Positions 4,838 through 38,637 of a DNA stretch of 39,710 bases are shown in pieces; position 1 is the stretch's first letter; each line of letters begins with the position of its first letter. A model generated the notes under the pieces. The model had not been told where the DNA came from. It ran no database searches and saw only the letters and a program-made list of their open reading frames with translations. Origin of the DNA: Bacteroidales bacterium (GTDB lineage Bacteria; Bacteroidota; Bacteroidia; Bacteroidales; UBA932); assembly GCA_017553255.1 (NCBI GenBank), contig JAFZML010000181.1, forward strand, positions 1 to 39,710, read 5' to 3'. The position numbers were made by a program, and so were the translations under genes.

Positions 4838-4887
4838 TTCCGTGGAACTTTGTGGAACAATTGCAAGGTTTTCCCAAAATTATTTAT

Positions 4888-4895
4888 TAATTTTG
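4888..4895 (+). promoter_or_regulatory. Bacteroidota -7 promoter element (TAATTTTG) for the parAB operon
   Basis: TAnnTTTG about 45 nt upstream of the parA ATG. Confidence 0.6.
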
Positions 4896-4902
4896 CCAAT
4901 TC

Positions 4903-4930
4903 AGATTCCCGGTCGGAGCCGGGAATGACA
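4903..4930 (-). repeat. TGTCAT...ATCT-tagged palindromic repeat (REP-like) in the parA leader
   Basis: Minus strand reads tgtcATTCCCGGctccgaCCGGGAATct, an 8-bp perfect stem. Confidence 0.85.
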
Positions 4931-4939
4931 AAATTGACT

Positions 4940-5710
4940 ATGGGAAAAATTATAGCAATAGCCAACCAGAAAGGCGGTGTGGGAAAAACCACCACCGCCA
5001 TTAACCTGGCCGCATCTCTTGCGGTCCTTGAGAAAAGAGTTCTCATCATTGACGCAGATCCTCAGGCAAACACCACTTCCGGCCTTAACTTTGATCCGGA
5101 AAACAGTGACCACCGCACTCTGTATGAGATACTTATCGGTAAATTATCGGCCAGTGACGCGCTCATTCAGACGGAACTCCCCAAGCTTCACATGATTCCC
5201 TCCCACATTAACCTTGTGGGTGCGGAAATAGAGCTCCTGAATATCCCTGAGCGTGAATCCGTGCTCAAGAAGGCGCTGCAGCCCATCCGTGACAACTATG
5301 ATTTCATTATCATAGACTGCTCCCCTTCCCTGGGCCTCATCACGGTTAACTGCCTCACTGCCGCAGATTCCGTCATGATACCCGTTCAGCCGGAATTCTT
5401 TGCCCTGGAAGGCCTTGCAAAACTTATCCAGACCATACGTCTGGTCCAGAACGGCATAAATCCCGCCCTTACCATTGAAGGTTTTGTGGTCACAATGTTC
5501 GACGGCCGTACCAAGGTTCACAACCAGGTGGTGGCCCAGCTCCGTGAGCATTTCCAGGATATGGTGTTTGGTACCGTCATCCAGAGGAGCATACGCCTCA
5601 GCGAGGCTCCGTCCTACGGTAAGCCCATCATCCTTTATGACGTGATGAACAACGGAACGTCAAACTATATGAATCTGGCAAAGGAAGTACTGGACAAGAA
5701 CAACAACTAA
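4940..5710 (+). CDS. parA: Chromosome partitioning ATPase ParA/Soj
   Basis: MGKIIAIANQKGGVGKTTT deviant Walker A, IDADPQAN, IIDCSPSLG. True start taken as ATG 4940, not 4850. Confidence 0.96.
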   Translation: MGKIIAIANQKGGVGKTTTAINLAASLAVLEKRVLIIDADPQANTTSGLNFDPENSDHRTLYEILIGKLSASDALIQTELPKLHMIPSHINLVGAEIELLNIPERESVLKKALQPIRDNYDFIIIDCSPSLGLITVNCLTAADSVMIPVQPEFFALEGLAKLIQTIRLVQNGINPALTIEGFVVTMFDGRTKVHNQVVAQLREHFQDMVFGTVIQRSIRLSEAPSYGKPIILYDVMNNGTSNYMNLAKEVLDKNNN

Positions 5711-5711
5711 T

Positions 5712-6635
5712 ATGGCAGCAAAGAATCAGTATGGCCTAGGAAAGGGCCTTGGCGCGCTCCTCGGAGGAGAAGACCTCTCGGAGCTCAGAAAACCGGTTGG
5801 CTACATCAACAAGGAAGTGGTTTCCCAGGAAGGCAAACCCCAGGATACCTCAGACGTCCTTCGCATTCCCGTAGACCTCATAGAACCCAACCCCTACCAG
5901 CCCCGTATGTCCTTTGCTACGGAAGCTATGCAGGAGCTGGCGGATTCCATCCGTACATTCGGCCTTATCCAGCCCATCACCGTCCGCCGCAAGGGAGACA
6001 AATACCAGATCATAAGCGGTGAACGCCGTTACCGCGCCTCCATCATGGCCGGCATGGACATGATACCCGCATATATCAGGGACGCCTCCGAGCAAGGTAT
6101 GCTTGAGATGGCCATAGTGGAGAATATCCAGAGGGAAAACCTGGACCCCATAGAGGTTGCAATGAGCTACCAGCGCCTGATGGACGAATGCAACCTCACC
6201 CAGGAACAGATGGCAGACCGCGTGGGTAAAAAGCGCGCTTCCGTTGCCAACCAGCTCCGGCTCCTCAAACTCCCCGCAAAGGTTCAGCATGACCTTAAAG
6301 TGGGCCTTGTAAGCGTGGGGCATGCAAAGGTGCTGCTGGGTGTGGAAGATCCCGCCACCCAGGAATTACTTTGTGACCTCATTGTGAAAAACGGCCTCTC
6401 AGTGCGTCAGCTTGAGGAAAAGATAAAGGCCATGGGCAAGAAGAAGGATACCGTCTCTGAGGACGGCGCCCAGGAACTTCCTGAAATGTATTACAGGCTT
6501 CTTGAGAACGTGGGCAAGTACTTTGGTGATAATATATCCCTCAAGCGCTCACGTGACGGCAAGGGCACAATGACCATCAAGTTTGACTCCGACGCCCAAA
6601 TGGAGCAATTCCTCAAAGCCCTGGATCTGAGATGA
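5712..6635 (+). CDS. parB: Chromosome partitioning protein ParB/Spo0J
   Basis: GLGKGLGALL, PNPYQPR, GERRYRA, ENIQRENL, HTH TQEQMADRVGKKRASVAN. Confidence 0.96.
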   Translation: MAAKNQYGLGKGLGALLGGEDLSELRKPVGYINKEVVSQEGKPQDTSDVLRIPVDLIEPNPYQPRMSFATEAMQELADSIRTFGLIQPITVRRKGDKYQIISGERRYRASIMAGMDMIPAYIRDASEQGMLEMAIVENIQRENLDPIEVAMSYQRLMDECNLTQEQMADRVGKKRASVANQLRLLKLPAKVQHDLKVGLVSVGHAKVLLGVEDPATQELLCDLIVKNGLSVRQLEEKIKAMGKKKDTVSEDGAQELPEMYYRLLENVGKYFGDNISLKRSRDGKGTMTIKFDSDAQMEQFLKALDLR

Positions 6636-7554: not shown

Positions 7555-8772
7555 ATGAGAAGATTGATTATTGCCATCCTGGGCCTTTTACTCTCTTCCG
7601 GATTTGTATTCGGCCAGGATACGGATACCCTTTTGCAAAGGTGGTACCTTCACCGCCAGGCCAGGACCCAGCAGCCGGACGCCGGGTACAACATGGACTC
7701 TGTGAAGTTCAATACCAATGTGCCTGATTCCGTGCTTATGGGCCGCCTGGAAAGGATGCACAGTTTCATCACCCTCCCCTATAATGAGACGGTGAAGAAT
7801 TATATGGTACTGTACAGCGAGAAGATGCCAAAGAGTATGGCCGAAATACTCTCGCTCAGTGAGTATTACTTCCCCATTTTTGAAGAAACGCTTGACCGTT
7901 ACGGACTGCCCCTGGAACTGAAGTATATGGCCGTCATAGAGAGCCATCTCAACCCCAGGGCGGAATCCGTTTACGGAGCAAAGGGCCTGTGGCAGTTTAT
8001 GTACCGCACCGGCCTCAGCTATGGCCTCAGGGTGAATTCCTACATTGATGAGAGGATGGATCCAATCCTTTCCACGGACGCCGCCTGCAGGTACCTGAGG
8101 GACGCATACGCTATCTTCGGCAGCTGGCCGCTTGCAATATCGGCCTACAACTGTGGCAGCGGTAACGTGAACAAAGCCATCAAAAGGGCTGGAGGAAGCA
8201 TGGATTACTGGAAGGTCTACGATTACCTCCCCCGTGAAACCAGAGGCTATGTCCCCGCTCTTGTGGGCGCAATGTACGCAATCAACTATGCCAAGGAGTA
8301 TGGAATAAGGCCAGATCCCGCCGCCGTGCCGGAATACGTGGACACTTTCCACGTGCATAAGAACCTGCACCTGAGGCAGATAAGTGAGGTGATGGGAATC
8401 CCCATGGAAGATGTCCGGGACCTTAATCCCCAGTACTTCAAGGATTATGTCCCCGCCGCCGGTACCACCGAAGTAATCCGCCTCCCCTTCGCATACAGCG
8501 CCTCATTTTTGGACCTCCAGGACTCCATTTACAGATATAAGGCCGATGCCCTCCTTGGCGGCAAAATCACCGATGGCCGTGAAGTTGTTAACGGCCGCCC
8601 CGTCCAGACAACCCAGGGCACATCCTGGGTATATTACAAGGTCAAATCCGGAGATACCCTCAGCCATATTGCCAGAAAGTATCACTGCACCGTTTCCCAG
8701 CTCAAATCCTGGAACAACCTCAAGAGTGACCGCATCTCAATAGGCCAGCGCCTGAAGGTGGGAAAACGCTAG
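7555..8772 (+). CDS. MltD-like lytic transglycosylase with C-terminal LysM domain
   Basis: SLT motifs [24 protein letters not shown]; Lys[17 protein letters not shown]...IGQRLKV. Confidence 0.92.
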
Positions 8773-8794: not shown

Positions 8795-8971
8795 GGGCAC
8801 CAGGATGGCGATTCCGTGCCCGTGAAGATGTTTTTGGCACTTGCGGGCACCAGGAGGCCGAATCTGTGCCCGTGTAGGTCTTTTGGGCACTTGTGGACAC
8901 CGGGAGGAGGAATCCGTGTCCAATGTGGCGTTTTTGGCGTTAGCGGGCACCAGGAGGCCGATTCCGTGTCT
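8795..8971. repeat. Left tandem array: 4 hairpin units at exact 50-bp period
   Basis: 27-bp units GGRCAC-N15-GTGYCY start at 8795, 8845, 8895 and 8945, separated by related 23-bp T-rich linkers. The array ends 3 bp from the transposase stop codon. Confidence 0.95.
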
Positions 8972-8974
8972 GAA

Positions 8975-9892
8975 TTATTTGGGTGCGGGGAACATGGAAT
9001 TCACCGTGGAGGCGGGAAGCTGCAGAACGATGGAAATTATCCTGTTGGATGAATTCAATCTGGTTTTCATCATTTTTGCTGCTTCAAGCCGTTCATACTG
9101 AGTCATTTGTCTTATCCCTTTTCCGGGGAACCAACTGGCCACTATCTGAAAAGTCTCCTCAATGGGAATCTGGATATTTTCACCAAGAATCCGGGCAATC
9201 TCTATATCTGCCTCTCCCCTTCTTGTGAGAAGGGAAAAATACTGGTTGGCATTATTGAAAAGGGATTCCGTAATTCTGTATTTGACAAAGCTGCTTCTTA
9301 AGATCATACCGTCAAGTACACGATAATGTTCTGGCAGGTCAACATTGTGAGAACGGCAGATAATCCTTTTTTCACGGCCTCCCACCTTGGGGTATTCAAT
9401 ACCTTTATCAAATAGCCAGAGGTTCCCGTTGAAAAACAGGTTCGCGGATCCCCATGGATAGCCGGTGGGCATTGCGTCGAACCTTGCCACATATGCATTT
9501 CTGTCCGTGTAACATATTCTGTTACGGAACTGTTTCAGATCTACGGTCTCTTCTATCTGAATGTTCCAGTCTTTCAGCGGAGGATTTCCCAGGGACCTTT
9601 GGAGTTTTCTTTGAGAGTCCCGCAGGAAATCCACGAATCCCTGCACGCGGCTGATGTCTCCCCTCCCCATGATGTGATGATGATTTGTCATCTCCACATC
9701 GTCCAGCACATCCATCCCTGACCGAGCCGATGCAATTGCAACCATATTGGTTCCCATCATAAACTCTTCCCGGCTTTTGTACAAGGCCCGGTCTAGGTTT
9801 TCAGTTGTGATATAATAGTAAGGACCATTGTCCAGAAATAACTGTTCACATTCTTTTTCCCTGTTCCAGTAATTGTTCTTGTCTACATCCAT
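8975..9892 (-). CDS. HUH/Y1 transposase-like protein (RAYT / IS200-fold) with C-terminal helical, possibly HTH, extension
   Basis: MTNHHHIM corresponds to the MxNHxH HUH motif, RICYTDRNAYVA to the catalytic-Tyr YxxxNP motif, and YPWGS to YxWSS. The start is probably ATG 9892 (MDVDKNNY..., 305 aa); the upstream 60 codons of the listed ORF run through the repeat array. Confidence 0.82.
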   Translation of the reverse strand: MDVDKNNYWNREKECEQLFLDNGPYYYITTENLDRALYKSREEFMMGTNMVAIASARSGMDVLDDVEMTNHHHIMGRGDISRVQGFVDFLRDSQRKLQRSLGNPPLKDWNIQIEETVDLKQFRNRICYTDRNAYVARFDAMPTGYPWGSANLFFNGNLWLFDKGIEYPKVGGREKRIICRSHNVDLPEHYRVLDGMILRSSFVKYRITESLFNNANQYFSLLTRRGEADIEIARILGENIQIPIEETFQIVASWFPGKGIRQMTQYERLEAAKMMKTRLNSSNRIISIVLQLPASTVNSMFPAPK

Positions 9893-9932
9893 TTGTCTTT
9901 TGTCATTAGTTGTTAATACTTTTCTTTTACAC

Positions 9933-10059
9933 GGACACCGGGAGCACGAATCAGTGTCCGTGTAGGTCTTTTGGGCACTTGCGGACACCGGGAGGAGGAA
10001 TCCGTGTCCAATGTGGCGTTTTTGGCGTTTGCGGGCACCTGGGGGGCCGATTCCGTGTC
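9933..10059. repeat. Right tandem array: 3 hairpin units at exact 50-bp period
   Basis: Units start at 9933, 9983 and 10033, in the same orientation as the left array. Linkers gtgtaggtcttttgggcacttgc and aatgtggcgtttttggcgtttgc each differ by one base from left linkers 2 and 3. Confidence 0.95.
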
Positions 10060-10075
10060 CGTTGGACGTCATCGG

Positions 10076-11689
10076 TCACAACCCGCACTGGAGTTGGAGA
10101 TTCAGCGTGGGAGCGAAGGGACGGCCTACCCGTAAGAGGCCGGAGGCGCGGAGATAGACGCGGAGGTCCAGGCGGCCGAGGCGCCACTTCACGGCGCCGG
10201 TGGCGGAGAGGGATGCGCCGCGGCCGTAATAGGCCGGGACGGAGAATGTTCCGGGAGCGTCTCTCTCATACACATAAATACGTGCCGCCCAATTGTCTAC
10301 CATAAACCCGGTTACGCGGAAATAGGCCGAAAATCCCGCACGGGGCGTTTCCCCCTTGTATCCGCCTTCCAGGTATCCGAGATATCCCCAGCGCTCACAG
10401 TGAACACCTTCCAGCCTAAGAACTGAAAGCCAGGAACCTGAGGTAAAACGAAGGTCACCTCTGAGGTCCGTGCGTGGTGCCTCGTAATTCCGATACCTTT
10501 CCGTGACGCGGCCTTCAAATGACCACAAATCGGTAATAATCCATTGGGTACGCCCGTATGCACGTAGCTGGAAGCGTCCCGGGTCCGTATAAGGTATTGG
10601 AAGAAGTGCTGCATCGGCCGTCACGGATGCAATGACCTTCCGGTTCCGGAATTCCAGCCCTGCCGCAGCGGCGTACTCACCGTTCTTCTTGCCGGAGTAT
10701 TTCATGGGCACAACCCTCCCCTGCAGCGCCAGGCGGAAATATTCCCCCAGAGATACCTTGAAGGCCGATATTCCTGCCAGAGACCCGTTCCTGAAAGAGA
10801 GCTCCCCACTAAGGAGTGCGCCCCTCAGGTTAAGCTTTGCATCGGCCGAAACCATCCATTTTGCCGATGGCGATGACGCTGCTGTGAAACCCGCCTGGAA
10901 GCGTTTTCCAAGGAACTCTCCCCTGGCCCCGAAGGTGCGGTCTAAGGACCCGAACGCCTGCGCCCTCCAGTGGAGGGAAGAATATTCGTAGGCAAGGCCC
11001 CTTTGGACCCCGGAACTGGTAAAAGACCACACCGGAGATATGCCCTGGGCACGCTTCAGGAAGGCATCAACGGTGGAGAGGCTCTCCATTGAGAACCCCG
11101 TCCAGAGGCCAATTCCTTCCGCAAAACGTATCTTGTAATCCCCCGCAACAATGCGGTGGTTCCCAAGGGTAGCCTCACCAAAGAAGGTCCCGTCCCAGTT
11201 CTTGAAGCCACCGGCACATCTCACGGCGCCGCCAGCTCTCCAGGAACGCCCGGTTACCTTCACTTTTCCTCCGGCCGAAGTAAGCGTCCCGCGTAGCAGC
11301 GTCTGCGTCTTTATCCGGACGGTGTCCGCAGCTCCGGGAAGGCGAGAGGATTCCAGCGAGAGGAATGGCCGGAGAACTTCTACATCGGCCTTTGTAAATC
11401 CCTCAAGGAGAGAGAGTTCCTCCCAGGAAAGGATATCCCCGGAGGTGGCCCTGTAATCCCTTATCACCGCCACCTGGTAATCAGAAAGGATGGCCGATGC
11501 GCGGAGGTGGTTCGAGTTCACCTTCACCGGCCTTCCCCGGCGGGATTCCAGGATGTCCACAATCCCCTCATCAACCTCTTCCTCAGACCCTGCTCCGCTA
11601 AGCAGCATGGCCGCCCGGAGTACCTCCTGATCCTGCGCCGCCGCGGGTAATGCAAGCGCCAGAAACAATATTCCCACGTACTTTCTCAT
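10076..11689 (-). CDS. Secreted Bacteroidota protein with degenerate helix-hairpin-helix (ComEA-like) N-terminus and probable beta-barrel C-terminus
   Basis: Signal peptide; LSDYQVAVIRDYRATSGDILSWEELSLLEGF (HhH-like), VAGDYKIRFAEGIGLW, RIYVYERD...FSVPAYYGRG. Confidence 0.65.
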   Translation of the reverse strand: MRKYVGILFLALALPAAAQDQEVLRAAMLLSGAGSEEEVDEGIVDILESRRGRPVKVNSNHLRASAILSDYQVAVIRDYRATSGDILSWEELSLLEGFTKADVEVLRPFLSLESSRLPGAADTVRIKTQTLLRGTLTSAGGKVKVTGRSWRAGGAVRCAGGFKNWDGTFFGEATLGNHRIVAGDYKIRFAEGIGLWTGFSMESLSTVDAFLKRAQGISPVWSFTSSGVQRGLAYEYSSLHWRAQAFGSLDRTFGARGEFLGKRFQAGFTAASSPSAKWMVSADAKLNLRGALLSGELSFRNGSLAGISAFKVSLGEYFRLALQGRVVPMKYSGKKNGEYAAAAGLEFRNRKVIASVTADAALLPIPYTDPGRFQLRAYGRTQWIITDLWSFEGRVTERYRNYEAPRTDLRGDLRFTSGSWLSVLRLEGVHCERWGYLGYLEGGYKGETPRAGFSAYFRVTGFMVDNWAARIYVYERDAPGTFSVPAYYGRGASLSATGAVKWRLGRLDLRVYLRASGLLRVGRPFAPTLNLQLQCGL

Positions 11690-17890: not shown

Positions 17891-17891
17891 T

Positions 17892-17918
17892 TGTCATTCT
17901 GAGCAAAGCGAAGAATCT
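17892..17918 (+). repeat. TGTCAT...ATCT-tagged palindromic repeat filling the degV-GNAT gap
   Basis: tgtcattctgagcaaagcgaagaatct, directly followed by ATG 17919. Confidence 0.9.
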
Positions 17919-19046
17919 ATGATTGAAATCAGAGAAGTCAAAACCTGCAAGGAGCGGAGGGAGTTCCTGAACTTCCCGCTGGACCTGTACAAGGGGAATC
18001 CGTATTACATTCCCCCCATGTACATGGATGAGCAGAAGATATTCCGCAAGGATTACGTGTACAATTCAAGCTGTGATTCCGTATTCTTCAACGCTTACAA
18101 GGACGGAGTCATTGTTGGCCGAATCCAGGGCATAATCCAGAGGGACGCAAATGCCAAGAACGGAGAGAAACGCGCACGTTTCACCCGTATTGAGGCGACG
18201 GATGACCATGAGGTATTCAAGGCCCTGATGGACGCTGCAGAATCCTGGGCAAGGGAAAAGGGCATGGATACAATCCAGGGCCCCATAGGCTATTCAGACC
18301 TTGAAAAGGAAGGCCTCCTAATTGAAGGTTTTGATGTGCCGGGCACCTTTGTCACCACCTATAACCATCCTTATTACCAGAAGCACATAGAAGCTCTTGG
18401 GTACAAGAAAGAGGTGGATTACACCGGTTCCTTCCTCTACGGCCCGGAATCAGATGAAACCCTTGAGGAAATGGAGAAGCTTGTGGAATTCATCTTCAAG
18501 CGCTATAAGCTCCATTTTGGAGAGTCAAAGAACGGCGCGGATTTCATGAAAAAATACGCCAACGGCATCTTCAACCTCATGGACATGTCCTACGAGGGCC
18601 TCTACGGCACCGTCCCCTTCACTGAGGGCATGCGTAAGCTCATGCTGGATAACTTCGGCCTGGTGATAGATCCCAAGTATTCCGCTATCATTCTTGATGA
18701 GAATGAAAAGCCCGTTTGCTTCGGCCTTGCTATTCCTTCCCTTAACAGGGCCTTCCAGGGCACCAGGGGCCATATTACGCCCGGGGTTGCAGTCCGTTTC
18801 CTCAAGTGCAAGATGCACCCGGATTGCCTTAACCTCTGCATCATTGGCGCAGACCCTGAATACCTGAACCGCGGTGTGTCGGCCGCCCTCTCCCTTGCCA
18901 TCATGAAAATGCTCAAGGAAGATCCCAACCTCAAGTATGCCGATACCTGCATTAACCTTGAAGACAATTACGCTATTCAGAACCAGTGGAAGCGTTTCAA
19001 AAGGGAAATCCCCAAGCGCTACCGTGCATACGTTAAAGCACTTTAA
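17919..19046 (+). CDS. GNAT-fold acyltransferase (YghO / bacterial ceramide synthase-like)
   Basis: EFLNFPLDLYKGNPYYIPP, VGRIQGII, GPIGYSDLEKEGLLIEGFD, YNHPYY, DPEYLNRGV, LEDN. The start is 17919; the listed extension is translated repeat. Confidence 0.7.
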   Translation: MIEIREVKTCKERREFLNFPLDLYKGNPYYIPPMYMDEQKIFRKDYVYNSSCDSVFFNAYKDGVIVGRIQGIIQRDANAKNGEKRARFTRIEATDDHEVFKALMDAAESWAREKGMDTIQGPIGYSDLEKEGLLIEGFDVPGTFVTTYNHPYYQKHIEALGYKKEVDYTGSFLYGPESDETLEEMEKLVEFIFKRYKLHFGESKNGADFMKKYANGIFNLMDMSYEGLYGTVPFTEGMRKLMLDNFGLVIDPKYSAIILDENEKPVCFGLAIPSLNRAFQGTRGHITPGVAVRFLKCKMHPDCLNLCIIGADPEYLNRGVSAALSLAIMKMLKEDPNLKYADTCINLEDNYAIQNQWKRFKREIPKRYRAYVKAL

Positions 19047-19054
19047 CTCCCATC

Positions 19055-19081
19055 TGTCATTCTGAGCAAAGCGAAGAATCT
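19055..19081 (+). repeat. TGTCAT...ATCT-tagged palindromic repeat upstream of plsX
   Basis: 27-mer identical to 17892-17918, 1 nt before the plsX ATG. Confidence 0.9.
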
Positions 19082-19082
19082 T

Positions 19083-20102
19083 ATGATTAAAATTCTAATA
19101 GACTGTTTTGGCGGAGACCACTGCCCGCAGGCACCAGTAGAAGGTGCCCTGGCAGCGCTTGCAAAGAATCCTGAGCTCTATGTTCTCCTTTGCGGAGACG
19201 AGGAAATCCTCCGGAAGGAACTTGAGGGAAAGTCATTTGACAAAAGTCGCGTAGAGATTGTCCACGCCCCGGAAGTAATTGGCTGCGACGAAAAACCCAC
19301 GGACGTAGTGCGCATAAAGCGTAACTCCTCCATGATGAAAGCCATTATCCTCCTGAGAGACAGGGACGACATCTCCGCAATGGTATCCACAGGTTCCACC
19401 GGAGCGCTTGTAACCGGCGCCCTTGTACGCCTGGGCCGCATTCCCGGCGTTATCCGCCCCGCTTTTTGCCCCATCCTTCCCACAATGGACGGCGGCATAG
19501 TGGGTGTCTGCGACAGCGGCGCCAACGTGGAGGTAACTCCCGCCCACCTAAGGCAGTTTGCAATAATGTCCTCCCTTTACATGGAGAATGTTTACGGCGT
19601 CCAAAAGCCCCGCGTAGCGCTTCTGAACGTAGGAAAAGAGGCCGAGAAAGGAGACGAAACCCGTCAGGAAGCCTACAAGCTCCTTCAGGAAACGGAAGGC
19701 CTTAACTTTGTGGGCAATATGGAAAGCAGGGATCTCCTGTCTGGAAACTACAATGTTGTTGTGGCCGATGGCTTCTCCGGAAACGTCCTTGTGAAAACCA
19801 CCGAAGGCACGGCCCTGGAGCTTCTGAAAAAGTTGAAGAAGGAGATTTTCAGCCGCACAATCTATAAGATTGGCGCCCTTCTCATGAAGAAGATGTTCTC
19901 AGATATGAAGGAGTTCATGAATTACCAGAATTACGGCGGAAGCGTCCTTCTGGGCACTTCCAAGGTGGTTGTGAAGGGCCACGGCTCCTCCAAGGCCATT
20001 GCCGTTGAAAAGTGCATAGAACAGGCCTACCGCATGGAAGTGAGCGGTCTCTCTTCCAAGATTGAGGCCGAGATTTCAAAATACGATCATTACGAAGAAT
20101 AG
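19083..20102 (+). CDS. plsX: Phosphate acyltransferase PlsX
   Basis: IDCFGGDHCP, STGSTGA, DSGAN, PRVALLNVGKEAEKG, VVVADGFSGNVLVKTTEG, KGHGSS. Confidence 0.96.
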   Translation: MIKILIDCFGGDHCPQAPVEGALAALAKNPELYVLLCGDEEILRKELEGKSFDKSRVEIVHAPEVIGCDEKPTDVVRIKRNSSMMKAIILLRDRDDISAMVSTGSTGALVTGALVRLGRIPGVIRPAFCPILPTMDGGIVGVCDSGANVEVTPAHLRQFAIMSSLYMENVYGVQKPRVALLNVGKEAEKGDETRQEAYKLLQETEGLNFVGNMESRDLLSGNYNVVVADGFSGNVLVKTTEGTALELLKKLKKEIFSRTIYKIGALLMKKMFSDMKEFMNYQNYGGSVLLGTSKVVVKGHGSSKAIAVEKCIEQAYRMEVSGLSSKIEAEISKYDHYEE

Positions 20103-22038: not shown

Positions 22039-23139
22039 TTACAATAGCGGACCGGCGTAAATTTTAAGCAAAATCTCTTTGAGTTCCCTGGGATAATCCC
22101 TGGATATATCCTCTATGTACTTTTTGAAAGCCTTGAGCTCTGAGTCTGTGTAGGAATAGGAACGTTTGCCGCTAAGGATGTCCTTTGCCATGTAATTGGT
22201 GGGCCAGAGGCGGTACGCGGCCTTGATACGGCTGTCTATGAGGGCCGCCACTTCCCTGTTGAAGGCCGATGAACTAAGCCCCCTCAGGGCTTCAAGCTCT
22301 TCCCTGCGGAGGGGCTCCGTAACGGCAAGGTGTACCCTCCCCTTCTTCTGGGTGATGCCCGTTAGGATGGAATTGAGGTCCTCTCCCGGTTTTTTTACGT
22401 AGGGCTGCCCGGAGGACTTTGCATAAAGCTCCAGTGCCTTAAGGAGGTCACAGGGCTCCCATTCGTATGATATTGCAAGTGGGCAGATATTCAGGCTTGC
22501 AATGGCTTCCACCTTATCAGGACCGCCGCTAAGGCCGAACATCTTGATAATACCCTGATCCGTGGCGTCTATTCCGTCCTTTGTTCGGCCATTCCTCTGG
22601 GCTATCCATACGCTCTCATGCTTTTCACTTATTGCGTAATGGATGTACTCTGAGACATAGCGTGACTTGAGAAGGAAATCCCTTGGAGAAGTAACCGTGG
22701 TGGGCCTTTCTATACGGAACATCTTGTTGCTCTTGCCGGTGTCTATGACCAGCTGGCCCTGCATGAGATTTGCCCCGAAAGTTATTTCTGAGGTGCGCCT
22801 GCCTGCATCCAGCAGGAGAACCTGCAGGAAGGCGGCGTCAAGCATGATGTCACGGTGATTGGACACAAAGAGGTAATCCGTGCCTGGATCCAGCCTTTCC
22901 ATGCCCTCCACGGACAGGCCGTCCGTGGTTTTGGCTACAAGTGAATATATTGCCTTATACATGAAGCGGCGCTGGAATTCCTCCGTGGTGCGACAGCTCC
23001 CGATGATTCCCGCTATCTCATGAACGGGCTTTTCCGGGAACAGGAAATCACATACAAGGGGGAAATATTTATCCTGCACCATCCTCTGCATTGCTGCAGG
23101 GATTTCAGAATCATTATACGGCCTGATATCGTCAAACAT
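22039..23139 (-). CDS. Glycerolipid acyltransferase (PlsC/LPLAT superfamily)
   Basis: SNHRDIMLD (HX4D), WIAQRNGRTKDGID, ISYEWEPCD. Confidence 0.88.
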   Translation of the reverse strand: MFDDIRPYNDSEIPAAMQRMVQDKYFPLVCDFLFPEKPVHEIAGIIGSCRTTEEFQRRFMYKAIYSLVAKTTDGLSVEGMERLDPGTDYLFVSNHRDIMLDAAFLQVLLLDAGRRTSEITFGANLMQGQLVIDTGKSNKMFRIERPTTVTSPRDFLLKSRYVSEYIHYAISEKHESVWIAQRNGRTKDGIDATDQGIIKMFGLSGGPDKVEAIASLNICPLAISYEWEPCDLLKALELYAKSSGQPYVKKPGEDLNSILTGITQKKGRVHLAVTEPLRREELEALRGLSSSAFNREVAALIDSRIKAAYRLWPTNYMAKDILSGKRSYSYTDSELKAFKKYIEDISRDYPRELKEILLKIYAGPLL

Positions 23140-24433
23140 GCTTTTTTCTCAGATCAATAAATTTGACTGGTTTGCGGGACTTGGCCGGATAATTAATGGC
23201 CGATATCTCAGGCACGGGGAGAGTCTCTACGCGCGGGGCAACCCTTATCCTTGAGCGGAAACGGTCCTTGAGATCCTTCACATAATCAAAGTCCGGCGTA
23301 TATTTAAGGCCTATTTTTACAAGGACATCATCCGTACCTGCATCTGAATCCAGAACCTCTATGACGTAGTTTTCCACGTAAGGGGTGTTGTCCAGGACGT
23401 CGTTGAGTGCCGGCGGATAAAGGGTTGTGCCCTTGAGCTTGATCATGTTGTTCTTCCTGCCCACTATAGGAGTAAGGCGGTAGCTGTTTCTGCCGCATTT
23501 GCAGGGTTCTGTGATTTTGGCGGCCATGTCTCCGGTGCGGAACCTGAGAAGGGGCATCCCCTCCACGCCAAGAGTGGTAATTACAATCTCTCCCACTTCA
23601 CCGTCCTTCACTGGAAGATTGTCCTCCCCTATGATTTCAACGATTATAAGTTCCGGGTGGACGTGACCTCCGCAGCCGTAGGGGCACTCAGAGAATGTGG
23701 CGCTCATCTCTGTGGAAGAATATGTGGCGTACAATTCAACGTCCCATTTCTCCTTGATGCGGCGGCCAAGGAGGTTAAGTGAGAAATCCTGCTCCCTCAT
23801 ACCCTCACCTATGCCGATAATGCGCTTGATGGAGGAGTTCTTGTAATCTATACCGTGGTCTTCGGCCCATTGTATCAGGCGCAGGATGAAGGACGGAACG
23901 CACATGATGGTGTCCGGTTTCAGGCGCTGGATGCTGTCCCACTGAAGCTCCGGGATGCCGTTTCCTACGCGGATGACGCCGGCACCAAGCTCCCTCAGGC
24001 CAAGGAAATAAGCCATTCCGGCCATGAAACGCTTATCCAGGGTAACCATGAGCTGGACTATGCTTTCCGGGCCTAATCCGGCGCAGGCAAAGCTCTTCTT
24101 TTCATTGAGTGCAAGGCGCTGGAGGTCTTTGTCCGTGCAGCCGAAGGTCACGGGATCTCCCATTGTGCCGGAGGTGGTGATATAGTCAATTATCTTCTCC
24201 TTGGGCACGCAGAGGAATTCCTCATTGAACAGCTGGAGGTCCTTTTTTTCCGTGAATGGAATTGCCTTCAGGTCCTCTATGGTCTTAATACGGGAAATGT
24301 CTATATGGCACTTACGGAACAATCTCTGGTAATACTTGGAGTGGGCCTGCAGGTATTCCAGAGCATCTTTCAGACGTCCTTCCTGGAAGTTTTTTATCTC
24401 TTCCGGGCTTTTGAACTCTATATCTGTATTCAT
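23132..24433 (-). CDS. Phenylacetate-CoA ligase-family AMP-dependent ligase
   Basis: TTSGTMGDP, YSSTE, PLLRFRTGD, CKCGR, GRKNNMIKLKG. Confidence 0.9.
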   Translation of the reverse strand: MNTDIEFKSPEEIKNFQEGRLKDALEYLQAHSKYYQRLFRKCHIDISRIKTIEDLKAIPFTEKKDLQLFNEEFLCVPKEKIIDYITTSGTMGDPVTFGCTDKDLQRLALNEKKSFACAGLGPESIVQLMVTLDKRFMAGMAYFLGLRELGAGVIRVGNGIPELQWDSIQRLKPDTIMCVPSFILRLIQWAEDHGIDYKNSSIKRIIGIGEGMREQDFSLNLLGRRIKEKWDVELYATYSSTEMSATFSECPYGCGGHVHPELIIVEIIGEDNLPVKDGEVGEIVITTLGVEGMPLLRFRTGDMAAKITEPCKCGRNSYRLTPIVGRKNNMIKLKGTTLYPPALNDVLDNTPYVENYVIEVLDSDAGTDDVLVKIGLKYTPDFDYVKDLKDRFRSRIRVAPRVETLPVPEISAINYPAKSRKPVKFIDLRKKHV

Positions 24434-25300
24434 TTAGAAAGACATGTTGTGGAGCCAGGTGATGAACTCCTGGAACCAGCCTTCAGTTTCCTCACTGTAC
24501 TTTTCAGGGTTGGCGCCAAAGCCGTGGCCACCCTCATTGTACTGGATATAGTGATGAGGCACGTGGGATGCGCTCAGGGCCGAGTCCAGAAGAACGGAGT
24601 TGTGGTAATCCACAACGTCGTCGTCCTGGCAGTTAAGGATAAATACGGGGGGCATATCGGCCCTGGTGTGGAGCTCTACGGAAAGATAATCACGGAGATC
24701 CTTCTTGCCGGTGTTGCGTTCTCCCAGAAGGCCCAGGCGGGAACGCTTGTGGACGTAACGGTCATCGGTCATTGTAACAACCGGATATATTGCGGCGGCA
24801 AAGTCCGGGCGCAGGGACACGGCGGGTTTGAGCTTGTATTTCTCAAGGAAGTTGGTGTCATAATACTCTGCGCTCATCATGGCAAGGTGGCCGCCGGCGC
24901 TGAAGCCGATGACGCCCAGAGGGCAGCTGTAACGGGTACGGACTATCTGGATGGCCCTCTGGAGGTCACAGATCATATCAGGATGACGGTGGCCCCTGAG
25001 GACGCTGCGGTACTTGGATACAAACTCCAGTTTACCTGCAACGCGGTAACGGAGGAGATATGCCACATAGCCTTCTTCCGCGAGAGCCTTTGCCACCATC
25101 TCACCCTCTGACTTCTGGTCCAGCCAGTGATAGCTGCCGCCGGGGCAGATTATGATGGCTGCACGCGGCTCCCCTTCCGGAAGATATTCAGTGAGGGTAA
25201 CCTGTTTTGCATTGCAGGACGTTCCGTCCCAAATTTTGATCTGTGCCTGCGCCAAAAGCGGTAGAAGCACTGCCGTGAGAATCAGAATAAACCTTTTCAT
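24434..25300 (-). CDS. Secreted alpha/beta hydrolase (esterase)
   Basis: Signal peptide, ICPGGSY, GFSAGGH nucleophile motif, DDVV, GGHGFG. Confidence 0.88.
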   Translation of the reverse strand: MKRFILILTAVLLPLLAQAQIKIWDGTSCNAKQVTLTEYLPEGEPRAAIIICPGGSYHWLDQKSEGEMVAKALAEEGYVAYLLRYRVAGKLEFVSKYRSVLRGHRHPDMICDLQRAIQIVRTRYSCPLGVIGFSAGGHLAMMSAEYYDTNFLEKYKLKPAVSLRPDFAAAIYPVVTMTDDRYVHKRSRLGLLGERNTGKKDLRDYLSVELHTRADMPPVFILNCQDDDVVDYHNSVLLDSALSASHVPHHYIQYNEGGHGFGANPEKYSEETEGWFQEFITWLHNMSF

Positions 25301-25313
25301 ACACGAATATATA

Positions 25314-27995
25314 TCATTTTTTGTACCAATCCAAGTAAAAATGCCTCATTTGACGTGTAAACGCCCTTATTTCGGCGTCTTTCGGCACTTTGAGGCGCCC
25401 GCCTACCTCCAGGCTCAAACGGCCCTTCCTGAGGAAGAAATCGTGCTTTGGAAGGACATCGGAGAATCCCCTTATGCATAGCGGAAGCATTTCTACGTCA
25501 TTTTCCTGTGCTGTAAGGAATGCTCCACGGTGGAAGCGGAGAATCTCCCCGTCAAGGCTGCGCGTTCCTTCCGGGAATATCACAATGGAGTATCCTCTGC
25601 CAAGAAGGTTTTTCACGTGCTCCGCGTTCCCGAAATGTCCGTTGGCCGCCGGGTAAAACTCCGCCTTTCGGAGGATATACCTGTACAGCGGGAAGTTCCA
25701 TACCCATTCATTTGTGGTGAAAACAAGCTTGGGATTCAGGGCCATGATGGCAAGGACATCAAGGTGGCTCTGGTGATTGCATACGTAGATGGCGGGCCTG
25801 GAGAAATCCTCTCCGTGAGGGTTAAGGAGGGTATATTTAGCACCGGGAACGGTGTAGATTGCAAGTTTGGATATCTTTTGGATTACTTTGTGGAAGCGCA
25901 GCCTCTTTTCCTCAGTATTCTTGCCGATAAGGAAGAAAAGATTGGCCCACAGTATGAGGCCGCCCATGACAATCCCGTACAGGAGGCAGATCCAGCCGGT
26001 TTTGAGAATGGAGCCTATTGTAACGGGACTCCTGCGGGGCTGGCCCTTCTTTGTTGTGGACCAGTGGAACAGCACCGGAGGAATGTAGCAGGCCATCACC
26101 ACCACGGTAATCATGCCTATCACCGTCACAAGACCAAGGGAGCGCATTGCGGGATGCTTTGCGAAGGCCAGCACGCCTATGCCGATAAACATAATGAGGG
26201 CGCTCAGGACCACGGCGTTCTTGAATGAATGCAGAATCTTCTTCCCGGTTCTGTACTCATACAGGAGGCCTTCCGTAATGAAGATGGTGTAGTCGTCCCC
26301 CATTCCGAATATGAACGTGGCAAGAATAATGTTCACTATGTTGAAGCTGAGCCCCGTTAGGCCCATTATTCCTTCAATCCATATCCAGCTTACAGCCAGC
26401 GGCAGGAATGCCACCACGGCAATGGAGAAGCTCTTGAAGCTTAGGATAAGGAATAGGAAAACAATGACGGAGCACACAAGGCCGATAGTGTTGAAATCCT
26501 CATTGAGGGCCTCTACAAGGCTGGCCTGGGGCTCTTTGGCGTACTCCCTGTCAAGTGAGTCAAAGAAAGGCTGGAAAGCATGTGCCGTAAACCCGTGCCT
26601 TAATCCTGCGGCAACAAGGGTGTCCGCCAGTGCAGGGTACTTATCGGCTAGAAGTACCCATCCGTCATGCCCGACCTGATCGGGCATCTCCTGCAATGCC
26701 TCCAGCACTGCAAACCCCCTCTCCTCATCTGCCGTCATGTAGTTGATATTATGGAGGTTTGTGTCAAACCCCGTTTTCCTGCCCTGGAAGGCAAAGAATA
26801 CGGTGACAGCAATGAAGGCCCAGAATATGGCCGTGCGGGTTTTCTTCCCGGGATTCAGGAACCTGTCAATGTCCAGTTTGAGGGTATTCCTGGGGGCCTT
26901 TGCCTCCGGGACAAACACCGGGAGGAAAAAGAGCACAAAGACTATGGTACCAAGAAGCATCATTGCCCCAATGAAGCCAAAGTCCCTGAGTGCCGGTGCT
27001 TTCATGAGGAGAAGGCCCAGGAATGCGCCTACGGTGGTGATATTGCCTGTAAGAAGGGGCTCTACCTGCTGGGCAAGCGCTTCCCTTCTGTTTGGCTCAT
27101 ACTTAAGGTGATCCACGTAATGGAGCGGGTAATTAACCGCTATCCCTATTACCGTGCAGCCTATCCCAAGGATAATGATGGATATGCTGGGACGGAACAG
27201 AGCAATTATTCCAAGGGCGAAAACGGCGCCGAACGCTATGGAAATGAGTATCCACAGAACATCCTGGAAGCGTTTGTAGCTGAACCAAAGCACAATGCAT
27301 ATAAGAAGCGCTGCAATGGCCAGGGCCAGGAAAGAATCTTTCTTGATGCGGCTGGAGTTCTCTACGGCAACCTCAGGACCGCCCGTGGAATAGATATGGA
27401 CTGAAGGGTAAGAGGCCTGGATGGCAGCCTTGACGGTACTCAGGCTGTCTATGAGCTCAGCGTTTTTGGCGCTTTCACTGCCTCCGTAAGGAGAGTCAAA
27501 GAAGATTATGCCGGTTTCTCCATCCTGGGTGAAGATATATCCGTCTTCAATCCTTACCTGAGGGGCCGATGAATTAAGCCTCAGAGGGTCCTGTCTCACA
27601 TAATTGGAAAGGACGGGATTGGGAGACAAAAGGAGAGCTTTGTCCTCCTCAAGAACCTTGTCTATGTATCCGGGAATGGAAAGGAGGGAATCTATCCTTG
27701 CAGGGTCCGGATTAATGGAGAGAAGATCCATATCGGCCGATGGCATATCCCAGCTGAGGTCAAACTCATACATTGCATCAAGCTTTTCCTCCAGGGTGCC
27801 GCCTTCAAAAAGTACAGCCATCTTTTCCTGCCCCTTAACATCCTGATTCTGAGGAAGAAAATCCGTGATATCCTCATTGAAGGACAGCCTGGAGGCACTT
27901 AGGGCGCAAAGCCCGGCAATAAGCACAAGGATAACTGCGGCCAGGGGTTTTCTACCTGACAGGAAATCATAGATATGCAGGATAAAGCCTTTCAT
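25314..27995 (-). CDS. MMPL-family exporter fused to C-terminal PlsC-type acyltransferase
   Basis: GIAVNYPLH and GMGDDYTIF MMPL motifs; C-terminal NHQSHLD and IFPEGTRS. Confidence 0.9.
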   Translation of the reverse strand: MKGFILHIYDFLSGRKPLAAVILVLIAGLCALSASRLSFNEDITDFLPQNQDVKGQEKMAVLFEGGTLEEKLDAMYEFDLSWDMPSADMDLLSINPDPARIDSLLSIPGYIDKVLEEDKALLLSPNPVLSNYVRQDPLRLNSSAPQVRIEDGYIFTQDGETGIIFFDSPYGGSESAKNAELIDSLSTVKAAIQASYPSVHIYSTGGPEVAVENSSRIKKDSFLALAIAALLICIVLWFSYKRFQDVLWILISIAFGAVFALGIIALFRPSISIIILGIGCTVIGIAVNYPLHYVDHLKYEPNRREALAQQVEPLLTGNITTVGAFLGLLLMKAPALRDFGFIGAMMLLGTIVFVLFFLPVFVPEAKAPRNTLKLDIDRFLNPGKKTRTAIFWAFIAVTVFFAFQGRKTGFDTNLHNINYMTADEERGFAVLEALQEMPDQVGHDGWVLLADKYPALADTLVAAGLRHGFTAHAFQPFFDSLDREYAKEPQASLVEALNEDFNTIGLVCSVIVFLFLILSFKSFSIAVVAFLPLAVSWIWIEGIMGLTGLSFNIVNIILATFIFGMGDDYTIFITEGLLYEYRTGKKILHSFKNAVVLSALIMFIGIGVLAFAKHPAMRSLGLVTVIGMITVVVMACYIPPVLFHWSTTKKGQPRRSPVTIGSILKTGWICLLYGIVMGGLILWANLFFLIGKNTEEKRLRFHKVIQKISKLAIYTVPGAKYTLLNPHGEDFSRPAIYVCNHQSHLDVLAIMALNPKLVFTTNEWVWNFPLYRYILRKAEFYPAANGHFGNAEHVKNLLGRGYSIVIFPEGTRSLDGEILRFHRGAFLTAQENDVEMLPLCIRGFSDVLPKHDFFLRKGRLSLEVGGRLKVPKDAEIRAFTRQMRHFYLDWYKK

Positions 27996-28006
27996 TCCTT
28001 ATCCTA

Positions 28007-28014
28007 CAAAGATA
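28007..28014 (-). promoter_or_regulatory. Internal -7 promoter element (TATCTTTG) before the MMPL-PlsC gene
   Basis: TAnnTTTG in the only sizeable intergenic gap of the cluster, 11 nt from the ATG. Confidence 0.5.
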
Positions 28015-28029
28015 ATAAAAAATGGGGAT

Positions 28030-28755: not shown

Positions 28756-29072
28756 ACGGAAAGGGACATTCTGGCGTACTGGGTGCCGTCCTGGGCAAGG
28801 AGAATTACGCTTACTGAGCTTTCATCCTTGAATTCCCATTCATAGGAAATCTCTGTGCCGTCTCCGGGGAGAACCGGCGCCACAAACTTGATCTCTTTGG
28901 CACCTATGAGTTTTTTATCCATGAGCTCCAGAGCTATCTGGAGAAGGGTTACCCCCGGCGTTATGGGATAATCCGGGAAATGGGCCTTGTAGATGGGACT
29001 TTCCGGGATAAGGCGTACCGTGGCCTTGTTCTGGCCGCGTGAAACTACCGTATATAATACTCCTTCAAGCAT
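28752..29072 (-). CDS. FabA/FabZ-like hot-dog dehydratase
   Basis: IYKAHFPDYPITPGV, EIKFVAPV. Confidence 0.85.
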   Translation of the reverse strand: MLEGVLYTVVSRGQNKATVRLIPESPIYKAHFPDYPITPGVTLLQIALELMDKKLIGAKEIKFVAPVLPGDGTEISYEWEFKDESSVSVILLAQDGTQYARMSLSV

Positions 29073-31578: not shown

Positions 31579-31582
31579 CTCA

Positions 31583-31843: not shown

Positions 31844-31847
31844 ATAA

Positions 31848-34936: not shown

Positions 34937-34945
34937 ATCTACTTG

Positions 34946-38591: not shown

Positions 38592-38600
38592 CATTAGTTA

Positions 38601-38628: not shown

Positions 38629-38637
38629 ACCTCACTA

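What the first reader, a model, noticed from the sequence alone, without database searches (positions are those of the whole stretch)
8795..10059. HUH/Y1 transposase-like gene bracketed by two direct arrays of a 50-bp-period hairpin repeat
Seen: a 305-aa ORF with MTNHHHIM, CYTDRNA and YPWGS motifs has 4 repeat units immediately downstream and 3 just upstream. All units are in one orientation at an exact 50-bp pitch (27-bp hairpin plus 23-bp linker), and the unit was seen nowhere else in the window. Known: IS200/IS605 TnpA and RAYT proteins are HUH enzymes that recognise ssDNA hairpins. IS200/605 ends carry subterminal hairpins, and classical RAYTs are flanked by GTAG-tagged REPs usually arranged as inverted pairs. 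Inference: head-to-tail fixed-pitch arrays with no GTAG at the 5' foot of the hairpin fit neither pattern. This may be an undescribed Bacteroidales RAYT-like system in which the enzyme builds, maintains or is guided by its own arrays. Best candidate for a new system here.
Basis: partly seen in the sequence, partly recalled or inferred. Interest (0 to 1): 0.88.

Follow-up and report, generated by a model that had tools for sequence, protein, structure and literature searches.

The report
HUH nuclease reading helically spaced palindromes
A rumen gut bacterium carries a gene for a predicted DNA cut-and-join enzyme between two arrays of its own palindrome; in about 200 related genes the palindrome's sequence changes together with two amino acids of the enzyme while its spacing stays at 50-52 bases, so this is likely a new, protein-programmed version of a known bacterial repeat-and-enzyme partnership.

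Summary
Observation confirmed: a 305-aa gene (9892-8975, minus strand) lies between 4 and 3 units at 50-bp pitch. The predicted fold is a RAYT-like HUH/Y1 core (best match E. coli RAYT, Z 10.3) plus a C-terminal helix-turn-helix. The family is large but was found in only one Bacteroidales family. This genome has at least 7 divergent paralogues, most with their own palindrome. Across 201 loci the arms differ but the pitch is 50-52 bp, with unpaired A/T tracts phased at about 10.2 bp and no GTAG foot. Residues 173 and 182 track arm bases, and the rule held in held-out loci. A homodimer is predicted (0.71 against 0.00). Doublets are dispersed genome-wide, even in frame in polA. Strains in one study lack the gene and keep one hybrid unit. 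Verdict: a new variant of the REPtron (RAYT/REP) kind; not an IS, and no sign of guide RNA. Whether it binds double-stranded operators or single-stranded hairpins is open. This scan reported the same gene-plus-array design before in other genomes (e1-4048828, e1-4174929, e1-5277485). The listings I saw do not mention the recognition code, phasing or empty allele.

The parts
8975..9892 (-). Gene for a 305-aa class-2-like TnpA-Y1 (RAYT-like HUH) protein
   Evidence: purifying selection in relatives
9674..9682 (-). HUH motif H71-H72-H73 (H71 and H73 invariant in 201 of 201 non-redundant members)
9497..9511 (-). Y128-x-x-R-N132; predicted catalytic tyrosine (Y128 and N132 invariant in 201 of 201)
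   Evidence: class-2 motif Y---NP in PMC6006769
9335..9400 (-). Predicted arm-reading module, residues 165-186 (helix 172-179); R173 and H182 co-vary with arm bases
8981..9172 (-). C-terminal helical/HTH domain, residues 241-304, weakly like DnaA domain IV (Z 4.5-5.1, tied with unrelated helical domains); does not co-vary with the arms
8795..8971 (.). Downstream array: 4 dyad units GGRCAC-N15-GTGYCY at 8795, 8845, 8895, 8945; pitch 50
9933..10060 (.). Upstream array: 3 dyad units at 9933, 9983, 10033; 91% identical direct copy of units 2-4 of the downstream array
8809..10047 (.). 1239-nt segment (gene plus six units' worth of repeat) absent in strains of one study; the joint lies in a 10-nt identity shared by units 1 and 7 (8809-8818 = 10048-10057) and leaves one hybrid unit
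7555..8772 (+). Neighbour: SLT/LysM lytic transglycosylase gene, convergent; marks the left side of the site
10076..11689 (-). Neighbour: 537-aa unannotated gene; marks the right side of the site

Best explanation
This is a gene-plus-array cassette of a large family of RAYT-like HUH/tyrosine proteins, each flanked by its own palindrome at 50-52-bp pitch; the protein likely binds these palindromes as a predicted dimer, likely reading the arm base pairs in double-stranded DNA, and would nick and rejoin DNA to spread repeat doublets and occasionally move or lose its own gene. Shown: the anatomy, invariant catalytic residues, the fixed pitch with free arm sequence, covariation of residues 173 and 182 with two arm positions, dispersed doublets, whole-unit copy-number change, and an allele lacking the gene with one unit left. 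Predicted: the fold and the homodimer, whose two-fold axis (residues 160-163) lies just before the arm-tracking module. Inferred: each subunit reads one 6-8-bp arm (Arg173 on the guanine opposite the arm's inner C, Asp/Glu173 on the cytosine opposite an inner G). The two arms of a unit (about 21-22 bp apart) and the next unit (about five helical turns on) would face the same side of the helix, with phased A/T tracts bending the DNA between two dimers, which would make the doublet the smallest working unit. Tyr128 would cut a locally unwound strand and rejoin it elsewhere. Crossover between the two direct arrays would pop the gene out, and the reverse would insert it at a resident repeat. Nothing here was tested biochemically.
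For: Fold: best of 48,161 chains is E. coli RAYT 4er8, Z 10.3, rmsd 3.6, 147 aligned; next IS608 TnpA, Z 7.2. Foldseek's top 10 are ISDra2, IS608 and RAYT chains, E 0.006-0.013. 20 of 116 family members hit Pfam Y1_Tnp at E<=0.01. M68, H71, H73, Y128 and N132 are invariant in 140 of 140 and 61 of 61. dN/dS is 0.04-0.17 in 13 of 14 measurable pairs. Dyad doublets lie within 500 nt of 105 of 140 and 41 of 61 non-redundant loci, against 9 of 250 control ORFs. Flanks of 201 loci show pitch 50, 51 and 52 in 30, 158 and 38 cases, and every other pitch from 30 to 80 at most 3 times. GGRCAC doublets occur in 13 of 151 genomes at this pitch and 0 of 151 at 10 bp more. In 330 units of 70 loci, arms 9-13 bp from the dyad are 0.90-0.94 complementary; A/T tracts at about 5 bp pair at chance (0.45) and recur at about -46, -25, -5, +5, +26, +46, with the spectral peak at 10-10.5 bp. 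There are 122 one-sided against 9 two-sided arm changes, no excess over shuffles (p 0.21), and G-T against A-C mismatches are 40 to 53 on the gene strand. Covariation scan of 95 loci: residue 173 r 0.28, above all 300 permutation maxima (largest 0.22); residue 182 r 0.22. Training counts: R173 with C 41 of 46, D/E173 with G 14 of 17, H182 with G 33 of 34, R182 with G 7 of 47. Held-out loci: R173 with C 20 of 23 against 3 of 14 for other residues; H182 with G 13 of 14, R182 with G 1 of 18. Homodimer: ipSAE 0.71, best control 0.00, contacts agree at least 83%, pLDDT at least 85; the mark was reached by 20 of 30 solved dimers and 1 of 23 solved monomers. Flanking arrays are direct in 40 of 54 loci, inverted in 3, tied in 11. 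Joint 8808 to 10048 in runs X6 and X7, and a matching loose end in X5. The polA linker holds in-frame 51-bp units of three arm types in 3 genomes of the 27 linkers printed from 30 loci; in G083 the arm matches that of a resident gene.
Against: No activity, binding or expression data. The double-stranded mode is inferred from geometry only. Five of seven window units fold as ssDNA hairpins; some paralogues have long stems with 6-8-nt loops at the same pitch; and RAYTs tested so far act on folded ssDNA (PMC3479197, PMC8266576). Any 51-bp repeat has a harmonic at 10.2 bp, although this one is the strongest. The covariation test has few independent switches: 5 pairs per site on well-supported branches, 4-5 going the same way, p 0.06-0.125 for site 173 and up to 0.6 for site 182. 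The held-out set had only one D/E173 protein. 35 of 140 and 20 of 61 loci had no detectable doublet. The empty allele comes from one study and could be ordinary recombination or slippage at a 10-nt identity. The dimer may be recalled from solved TnpA dimers, and E. coli RAYT is a monomer. The two remote GGRCAC arrays of this genome have pitch 51-52, not 50, so they may belong to a lost or unassembled paralogue (genome 80% complete). C-terminal domain matches are at noise level.
Confidence: 0.5

Rival explanations
1. The same partnership, but with the classical RAYT/IS200 mechanism: the arms pair with each other in single-stranded DNA, the module at 165-186 reads the foot of the hairpin stem, and one dimer holds two neighbouring hairpins, which fixes the linker length.
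For: Closest structures are ssDNA-hairpin enzymes. Arms are 0.90-0.94 complementary and five window units fold at -5.7 to -10.4 kcal/mol. Short-loop paralogues (C135, C214, L021, L090) make good hairpins at the same pitch. [quoted passage not shown] The recognition code and the predicted dimer fit this model too.
Against: No conserved foot tetranucleotide at any position (best 4-mer is the A-tract, 23% of loci). No strand bias of wobble pairs and no compensatory changes. Unpaired inner tracts are A..A or T..T in 78 of 178 classifiable units. The phasing of A/T tracts has no obvious use in single strands.
Confidence: 0.33
2. The proteins are domesticated DNA-binding or DNA-architecture factors (for bending, replication or transcription control). 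The repeats are their binding sites and spread passively by slippage and recombination, with little enzyme-driven mobility.
For: Strong purifying selection. Near-identical genes keep the same neighbours in most pairs compared. The gene has sat beside the same neighbour in about 18 loci at 57-70% identity. Copy-number changes are whole units, as slippage would give.
Against: Catalytic residues are invariant in 201 of 201. Doublets of several families appear at unrelated sites, including independent in-frame insertions in polA. Presence is patchy, from 0 to 12 copies per genome. The same junction is bare in some species and holds unrelated paralogues in others.
Confidence: 0.1
3. It is an IS200/IS605-like insertion sequence whose ends are the arrays.
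For: Fold similarity to ISDra2 and IS608 TnpA; an allele lacking the gene exists; close relatives occupy several different loci.
Against: Paralogues within the genome are only 22-30% identical, with no near-identical copies. The protein is 305 aa with Y-x-x-R-N rather than about 150 aa with Y-x-x-x-Q. The empty allele keeps a unit instead of being clean. No TnpB-like neighbour is among the flanking ORFs.
Confidence: 0.04
4. The arrays are transcribed and processed into about 50-nt RNAs that guide the enzyme.
For: Regular pitch only. No RNA data were available.
Against: Units are near-identical copies without unique spacers. No strand preference for G-U pairs. No Rfam match in the window. Specificity tracks protein residues. 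Arrays also occur translated in frame inside polA.
Confidence: 0.03

Closest known systems
REPtrons: RAYT / TnpA-REP genes flanked by REP, BIME or REPIN repeats (E. coli TnpA-REP, PDB 4er8; PMC3479197, PMC8266576, PMC3116915)
   Same: HUH/Y1 fold (Z 10.3). Gene flanked by its own palindromes; several divergent paralogues per genome, each with its own repeat; repeats dispersed as doublets at a fixed distance and as tandem arrays; loss of the gene by deletion.
   Different: No GTAG foot. Wide 14-17-nt loop with unpaired A/T tracts. One pitch (50-52) shared by all arm families, whereas SBW25 doublets have family-specific 71 and 110 bp. About 300 aa instead of 150-165. Predicted dimer instead of monomer. 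An extra module whose residues track the arm sequence, whereas E. coli RAYT binds its stem mostly by shape.
TnpA-Y1 subclass 2.1 / RAYT group 1 / TIRYT, and subclass 2.3 (PMC6006769, PMC3733652)
   Same: NHxH and Y-x-x-x-N motifs, a W[GS] motif after the tyrosine helix, a long C-terminal tail ending in an HTH resembling DnaA domain IV, length near 300 aa.
   Different: Those subclasses were reported without REP-like sequences, or with terminal inverted repeats. Here both flanks carry mostly direct arrays of dyads. The range is one Bacteroidales family rather than mainly Proteobacteria.
TnpA-Y1 subclass 2.6 / RAYT group 5 (Bacteroidetes; PMC6006769)
   Same: Bacteroidetes host, no GTAG, atypical flanking structures with copies elsewhere in the genome.
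   Different: Subclass 2.6 proteins are about 179 aa, with WQ and YIH[QN]NP motifs. The two supplement rows I saw (of 68) are 8-bp stems with 3-nt loops and a 5-nt foot.
IS200/IS605 TnpA (IS608, ISDra2)
   Same: Core fold; dimeric in solved structures.
   Different: No multicopy identical elements, no Y-x-x-x-Q motif, no guide tetranucleotide. The predicted dimer interface (residues 134-163, 193-223, 243-246) lies after the tyrosine helix, whereas the solved TnpA dimers join through their beta-sheets.

Membership tests
TnpA-Y1 (HUH/Y1) superfamily | HUH motif and single catalytic Tyr on an RRM-like core | tested here: met
   H71, H73, Y128 invariant in 201 of 201; H-to-Y distance 57 aa; best fold match 4er8 Z 10.3; 20 of 116 members hit PF01797 although the window protein itself does not
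TnpA-Y1 (HUH/Y1) superfamily | Metal-dependent ssDNA cleavage and rejoining via phosphotyrosine | not testable with these tools
   needs biochemistry
REPtron (RAYT plus REP) | Gene flanked by its own palindromic repeats | tested here: met
   146 of 201 non-redundant loci against 9 of 250 controls
REPtron (RAYT plus REP) | Copies of the cognate repeat dispersed in the genome, mostly as doublets | tested here: met
   C13, C135, C214 and C220 families have remote doublets or clusters; the window's family has two remote arrays; C163 has none found
REPtron (RAYT plus REP) | Low copy number, divergent paralogues, purifying selection | tested here: met
Canonical RAYT (groups 2 and 3; subclasses 2.2, 2.5) | GT[AG]G tetranucleotide at the 5' foot of the hairpin | tested here: not met
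   0 of 7 window units; 29 of 318 units have it anywhere near either foot, and no 4-mer is conserved there
Canonical RAYT (groups 2 and 3; subclasses 2.2, 2.5) | Protein of about 150-165 aa with YxxxNP | tested here: not met
   305 aa, Y-x-x-R-N-A here; NP in some members
Subclass 2.1 / TIRYT | C-terminal HTH related to Bac_DnaA_C, HTH_23 or HTH_28 | tested here: inconclusive
   DnaA domain IV ranks first but at Z 5.1, tied with unrelated helical domains; no such Pfam hit in 116 members
Subclass 2.1 / TIRYT | Terminal inverted repeats, or no REP-like flanks | tested here: not met
   direct arrays in 40 of 54 loci, inverted in 3
Subclass 2.1 / TIRYT | Placement inside subclass 2.1 on the core-domain tree | not tested
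   no reference subclass sequences were fetched
IS200/IS605 | Near-identical copies, Y-x-x-x-Q motif, clean excision | tested here: not met
RNA-guided array systems (CRISPR-like, TIGR-like; definition recalled) | Unique spacers between repeats | tested here: not met
   loops and linkers are copies of one another within and between the two arrays
RNA-guided array systems (CRISPR-like, TIGR-like; definition recalled) | Array transcribed and processed into unit RNAs | not testable with these tools
   no RNA holder listed

The most novel reading that the evidence does not exclude
A HUH/tyrosine enzyme family that has left hairpin-plus-guide recognition behind: dimers read helically phased double-stranded operator pairs through a small protein module with a simple residue-to-base code, and act as a site-specific recombinase that excises and re-integrates its own gene at resident repeats. 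More than a thousand divergent natural versions would form a library of differently programmed nick-and-join enzymes.
Probability: 0.28. Interest if true: 0.87.

Novelty: new variant of a known kind. Interest (0 to 1): 0.66.

Why it matters
How RAYT enzymes recognise, copy and spread REP repeats is a long-standing open question. This family offers many enzyme-repeat pairs with one fixed geometry and a candidate two-residue recognition code, which gives direct tests: swap a residue, shift the spacing, compare duplex with hairpin. If double-stranded operator reading holds, it would be a new mode for HUH/Y1 enzymes and a source of reprogrammable nick-and-join tools. It also annotates a family of 1,283 protein clusters that Pfam and NCBIfam largely miss. 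And it explains a common class of intergenic repeats, and of 17-residue protein insertions, in one family of rumen and gut Bacteroidales.

Tried and rejected
Pfam and NCBIfam gave no hit for the window protein. A PDB sequence search gave only E about 1 hits to ISDra2 TnpA. Rfam gave no match in the window. The ESM Atlas gave unnamed Bacteroidota clusters, one with Y1_Tnp in 20% of members. No RNA holder was listed, so expression is untested. The promoter/terminator scan was at chance level, with no terminator-like site at the arrays. I expected the C-terminal HTH to read the arms, but it shows no covariation with them: rejected. Folding residues 150-305 alone matched only the last domain, at Z<=5.1; residues 1-88 of that model, which hold the arm-tracking module, were barely tested, so nothing follows about its fold. 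HUH and neighbour identities at the shared site correlate only weakly (Spearman 0.29, p 0.08): inconclusive on vertical descent. In run X8 the listed flank contigs differ from the window by 6-10% and the gene contigs by under 1% overall (7 of 1022). This hints at recent lateral exchange of the gene, but the contigs are shallow, unlinked and the list was cut, so I do not count it. The careful tree did not finish; the quick tree was used. Of 13 stretches around GGRCAC matches in other genomes, 1 held a family gene (K173/H182, as the code predicts) and 12 none within reach, several at contig ends. Runs X10 and X11 gave no joint across the element. The order-wide search scored only the top 5 candidates per genome, so 'not found in 396 genomes of other families' is limited. 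Rows dropped before counts: 4 of 96 loci (3 duplicates, 1 remnant); 7 mis-picked arrays; 10 of 105 loci (short-loop class or doubtful centring); genes with internal stops or odd length, and proteins over 90% identical to a kept one.
Full report
OBSERVATION. The window holds a 305-aa ORF at 9892-8975 (minus strand) between a convergent SLT/LysM gene and a 537-aa unannotated gene. Four units at 8795-8971 and three at 9933-10060 repeat at 50 bp in one orientation. Each unit is GGRCAC, 15 nt (16 in the last), GTGYCY, then a 23-nt linker. The upstream array is a 91% copy of downstream units 2-4.

THE PROTEIN. Pfam and NCBIfam miss it. The AlphaFold model (pLDDT 86) matches E. coli RAYT best among 48,161 chains (Z 10.3, rmsd 3.6, 147 residues), then IS608 TnpA (Z 7.2). 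Foldseek agrees at weak E-values. 20 of 116 relatives hit Y1_Tnp. M68, H71, H73, Y128 and N132 are invariant in all 201 non-redundant members examined, and dN/dS is 0.04-0.17 in 13 of 14 measurable pairs (one 0.67 at tiny dS; two saturated). The last 65 residues form an HTH-like bundle that ranks DnaA domain IV first, but only at Z 5.1. A homodimer is predicted: ipSAE 0.71 against a best control of 0.00, with at least 83% contact agreement and pLDDT at least 85. That mark was reached by 20 of 30 solved dimers and 1 of 23 monomers, and the pass may owe something to solved TnpA dimers. Residues 160-163 sit on the two-fold axis.

THE FAMILY. There are 1,283 clusters at 50% identity with E<=0.001. 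Members occur in 116 of 151 genomes of the genus, up to 12 per genome, and in 123 of 301 genomes and 13 of 37 genera of the family. None was found in the 396 sampled genomes of other families of the order (top 5 candidates scored). This genome has 7 clear full-length members and 5 more distant ones. The five found by tblastn are 22-30% identical to the window protein, and most have a palindrome of their own.

THE ARRAYS ARE A FAMILY TRAIT. Dyad doublets lie within 500 nt of 105 of 140 loci (both sides in 54 of 132 with both flanks readable) and 41 of 61 held-out loci, against 9 of 250 ordinary ORFs, none on both sides. Arm sequences differ widely, but pitch does not: 50, 51 and 52 bp in 30, 158 and 38 flanks, any other value from 30 to 80 at most 3 times. 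GGRCAC doublets occur in 13 of 151 genomes at this pitch and in none at 10 bp more. The two arrays are direct copies in 40 of 54 loci and inverted in 3. Near-identical genes often differ by whole units (51, 52, 102, 104, 150, 156 nt) and mostly keep their neighbours.

GEOMETRY. In 330 units from 70 loci, centred on the arms, positions 9-13 from the dyad are 0.90-0.94 complementary (partly by selection). Inside them lie A/T tracts that pair only at chance (0.45) around a GC core. A/T tracts recur at about -46, -25, -5, +5, +26 and +46, with weak ones near 15 and 35, and the strongest period is 10-10.5 bp. No 4-mer is conserved at the foot. Mismatches show no G-T preference on the gene strand (40 against 53 A-C) and no compensatory excess. 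This reads more like pairs of half-sites on one face of a duplex than like hairpins, but it does not exclude hairpins: five of the seven window units fold, and short-loop paralogues exist at the same pitch.

A RECOGNITION CODE. A scan of all columns against arm similarity in 95 loci (pairs under 40% identity, overall identity regressed out) picked residues 173, 182 and 167, not the C-terminal HTH. Residue 173 beat all 300 permutation maxima. R173 goes with C at the inner arm position in 41 of 46, D/E173 with G in 14 of 17; H182 goes with G at an outer position in 33 of 34, R182 in 7 of 47. Three R/G exceptions look like a one-base register shift. That arginine reads guanine and acidic residues read cytosine is general knowledge, recalled, and fits readout of the partner strand. 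On a tree built without the module there are only 5 independent pairs per site, mostly concordant, too few for significance. In held-out loci the rule held: R173 with C 20 of 23 against 3 of 14 for other residues; H182 with G 13 of 14, R182 with G 1 of 18. One gene found through its repeats had K173/H182, as expected.

MOBILITY. Several arm families have doublets or clusters scattered through this genome, mostly between genes. Three GGRCAC units lie in frame (17 codons each) in the polA linker, and two other genomes have independent 51-bp insertions of other arm types at that linker. In G083 the arm matches that of a resident gene; in G034 no exact match was among the two genes I fetched. The window's junction is bare in several species, holds close relatives of this gene in about 18 loci, and holds unrelated HUH-like paralogues in three. 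Contigs of runs X6 and X7 join 8808 to 10048 with 211 and 167 nt on the shorter side and a 10-nt identity at the joint; X5 shows the matching loose end. All three come from one study. The gene and six units' worth of repeat are gone and one hybrid unit remains. Since sister species carry the gene here, this is probably a loss. Whether the enzyme or host recombination made it is unknown.

MECHANISM. Shown: anatomy, conservation, fixed pitch, covariation, dispersal, the solo-unit allele. Predicted: fold and dimer. Inferred: a dimer reads the two arms of a unit in duplex DNA, two dimers on adjacent units five turns apart form the active complex, and Tyr128 nicks and rejoins a locally unwound strand, copying doublets and at times excising or inserting the gene through its direct arrays (0.5). 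The main rival keeps all of this but with single-stranded hairpins, two per dimer (0.33). A passive architectural role (0.1), an IS (0.04) and RNA guidance (0.03) fit less well.

COMPARISON WITH WHAT IS KNOWN. PMC6006769 (abstract, parts 2-5 of 9 of the main text, two supplement rows) describes REPtrons with one repeat family per paralogue, long HTH-tailed subclasses 2.1 and 2.3 without REPs, and Bacteroidetes subclass 2.6 with atypical structures. PMC3733652 (passages and one section) describes head-to-tail dimers, TIRYTs and loss of REPtrons by deletion. PMC3116915 (passages) describes doublets at family-specific distances and tandem arrays. PMC3479197 and PMC8266576 (passages) show monomeric E. 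coli RAYT binding folded ssDNA, mostly by shape, with GTAG required. bioRxiv 10.1101/119735 (passages) defines the RAYT groups. So the system works like a REPtron but fails the canonical RAYT tests (GTAG, size) and the subclass-2.1 test (no REPs). Eight searches of the held library found no description of it. Subscription papers are not covered, the rest of the PMC6006769 supplement table was not read, and bioRxiv supplements were not available.

EARLIER SCAN NOTES. Three notes report the same gene-plus-51/52-bp-array design in other genomes; I saw only their short listings and reproduced the design independently. A word search for a covarying recognition residue returned nothing.

VERDICT. 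Real, and a new variant of a known kind. Interest 0.66, mainly for the testable recognition code and the family-wide helical pitch.

Noticed in passing
window 17891-17930, 19054-19093, 32792-32868, 38528-38578, 39208-39275: A second, unrelated REP-like family (GTCATTCTGAGC-type) occurs five times in the window. One cluster of 21-bp units lies in frame inside the 361-aa ORF at 32327-33412, and others bracket a 213-aa ORF at 38527-39168 that has no Pfam or NCBIfam hit.
   Followed up: partly
G000 contig C1 17051-17180; L315, L316; L311, L313: The polA linker is an insertion hot spot: 51-bp units of three arm types in three genomes, and a VIPSEAEG-type peptide, apparently from the other repeat family, in two more.
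   Followed up: yes
L011, L013, L015, L027, L052, L115; G000 C13 near 6009 and C191 near 2825: A single TTATCCG...CGGATAA palindrome sits just upstream of the likely promoter in 8 of 98 family loci, whatever their own arm type. It may be a shared operator, and it resembles the arms of L062 and L077.
   Followed up: partly
G000 C163 near 1905, C220 near 1016, C60 near 10834, C1 near 12943; window 11747: TTTCACGTGAAACA-like sites (parS-like, consensus recalled) lie upstream of four family or distant-family genes and once in the window, which also has ParA- and ParB-like ORFs at 4850-6635 (names from motifs, not searched).
   Followed up: no
G000 C220 1090-1995 and 13 clusters genome-wide: A more distant paralogue is flanked by a different repeat (TTGCCGTGTT) with alternating 46/37-bp spacing, the most abundant dispersed family found in this genome.
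   Followed up: partly
G000 C111, C60, C223, C1 11971-12870: Four still more distant HUH-like proteins of about 300 aa (H-x-H and Y-x-x-N-N motifs), without 51-bp arrays; C60 has long perfect palindromes on both sides.
   Followed up: no
G000 C7, C43, C84, C91, C97, C114, C145, C182; C161, C173, C191: Two dispersed 52-bp doublet families have no flanked gene in the assembly; their enzymes may be lost or unassembled.
   Followed up: partly
G000 C214 6122-6430: A short ORF of about 75 codons lies on the opposite strand between the upstream doublet and the HUH gene (read by eye).
   Followed up: no
L058, L032: Arms of some families contain or resemble a DnaA box (TTATCCACA; consensus as quoted in PMC6006769).
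   Followed up: no
L020: A remnant at the same site keeps only residues about 140-305 and has lost both arrays.
   Followed up: partly
window 31211-31302: A 27-nt inverted repeat with a 38-nt spacer lies in frame inside the 422-aa ORF at 30340-31608, probably another repeat insertion.
   Followed up: no
window 22039-36040: A run of ORFs that look, from motifs alone and by recall, like a lipid or aryl-polyene-type biosynthesis cluster (acyltransferases, ligase, MMPL-type transporter, ketosynthases, ACP, methyltransferase).
   Followed up: no
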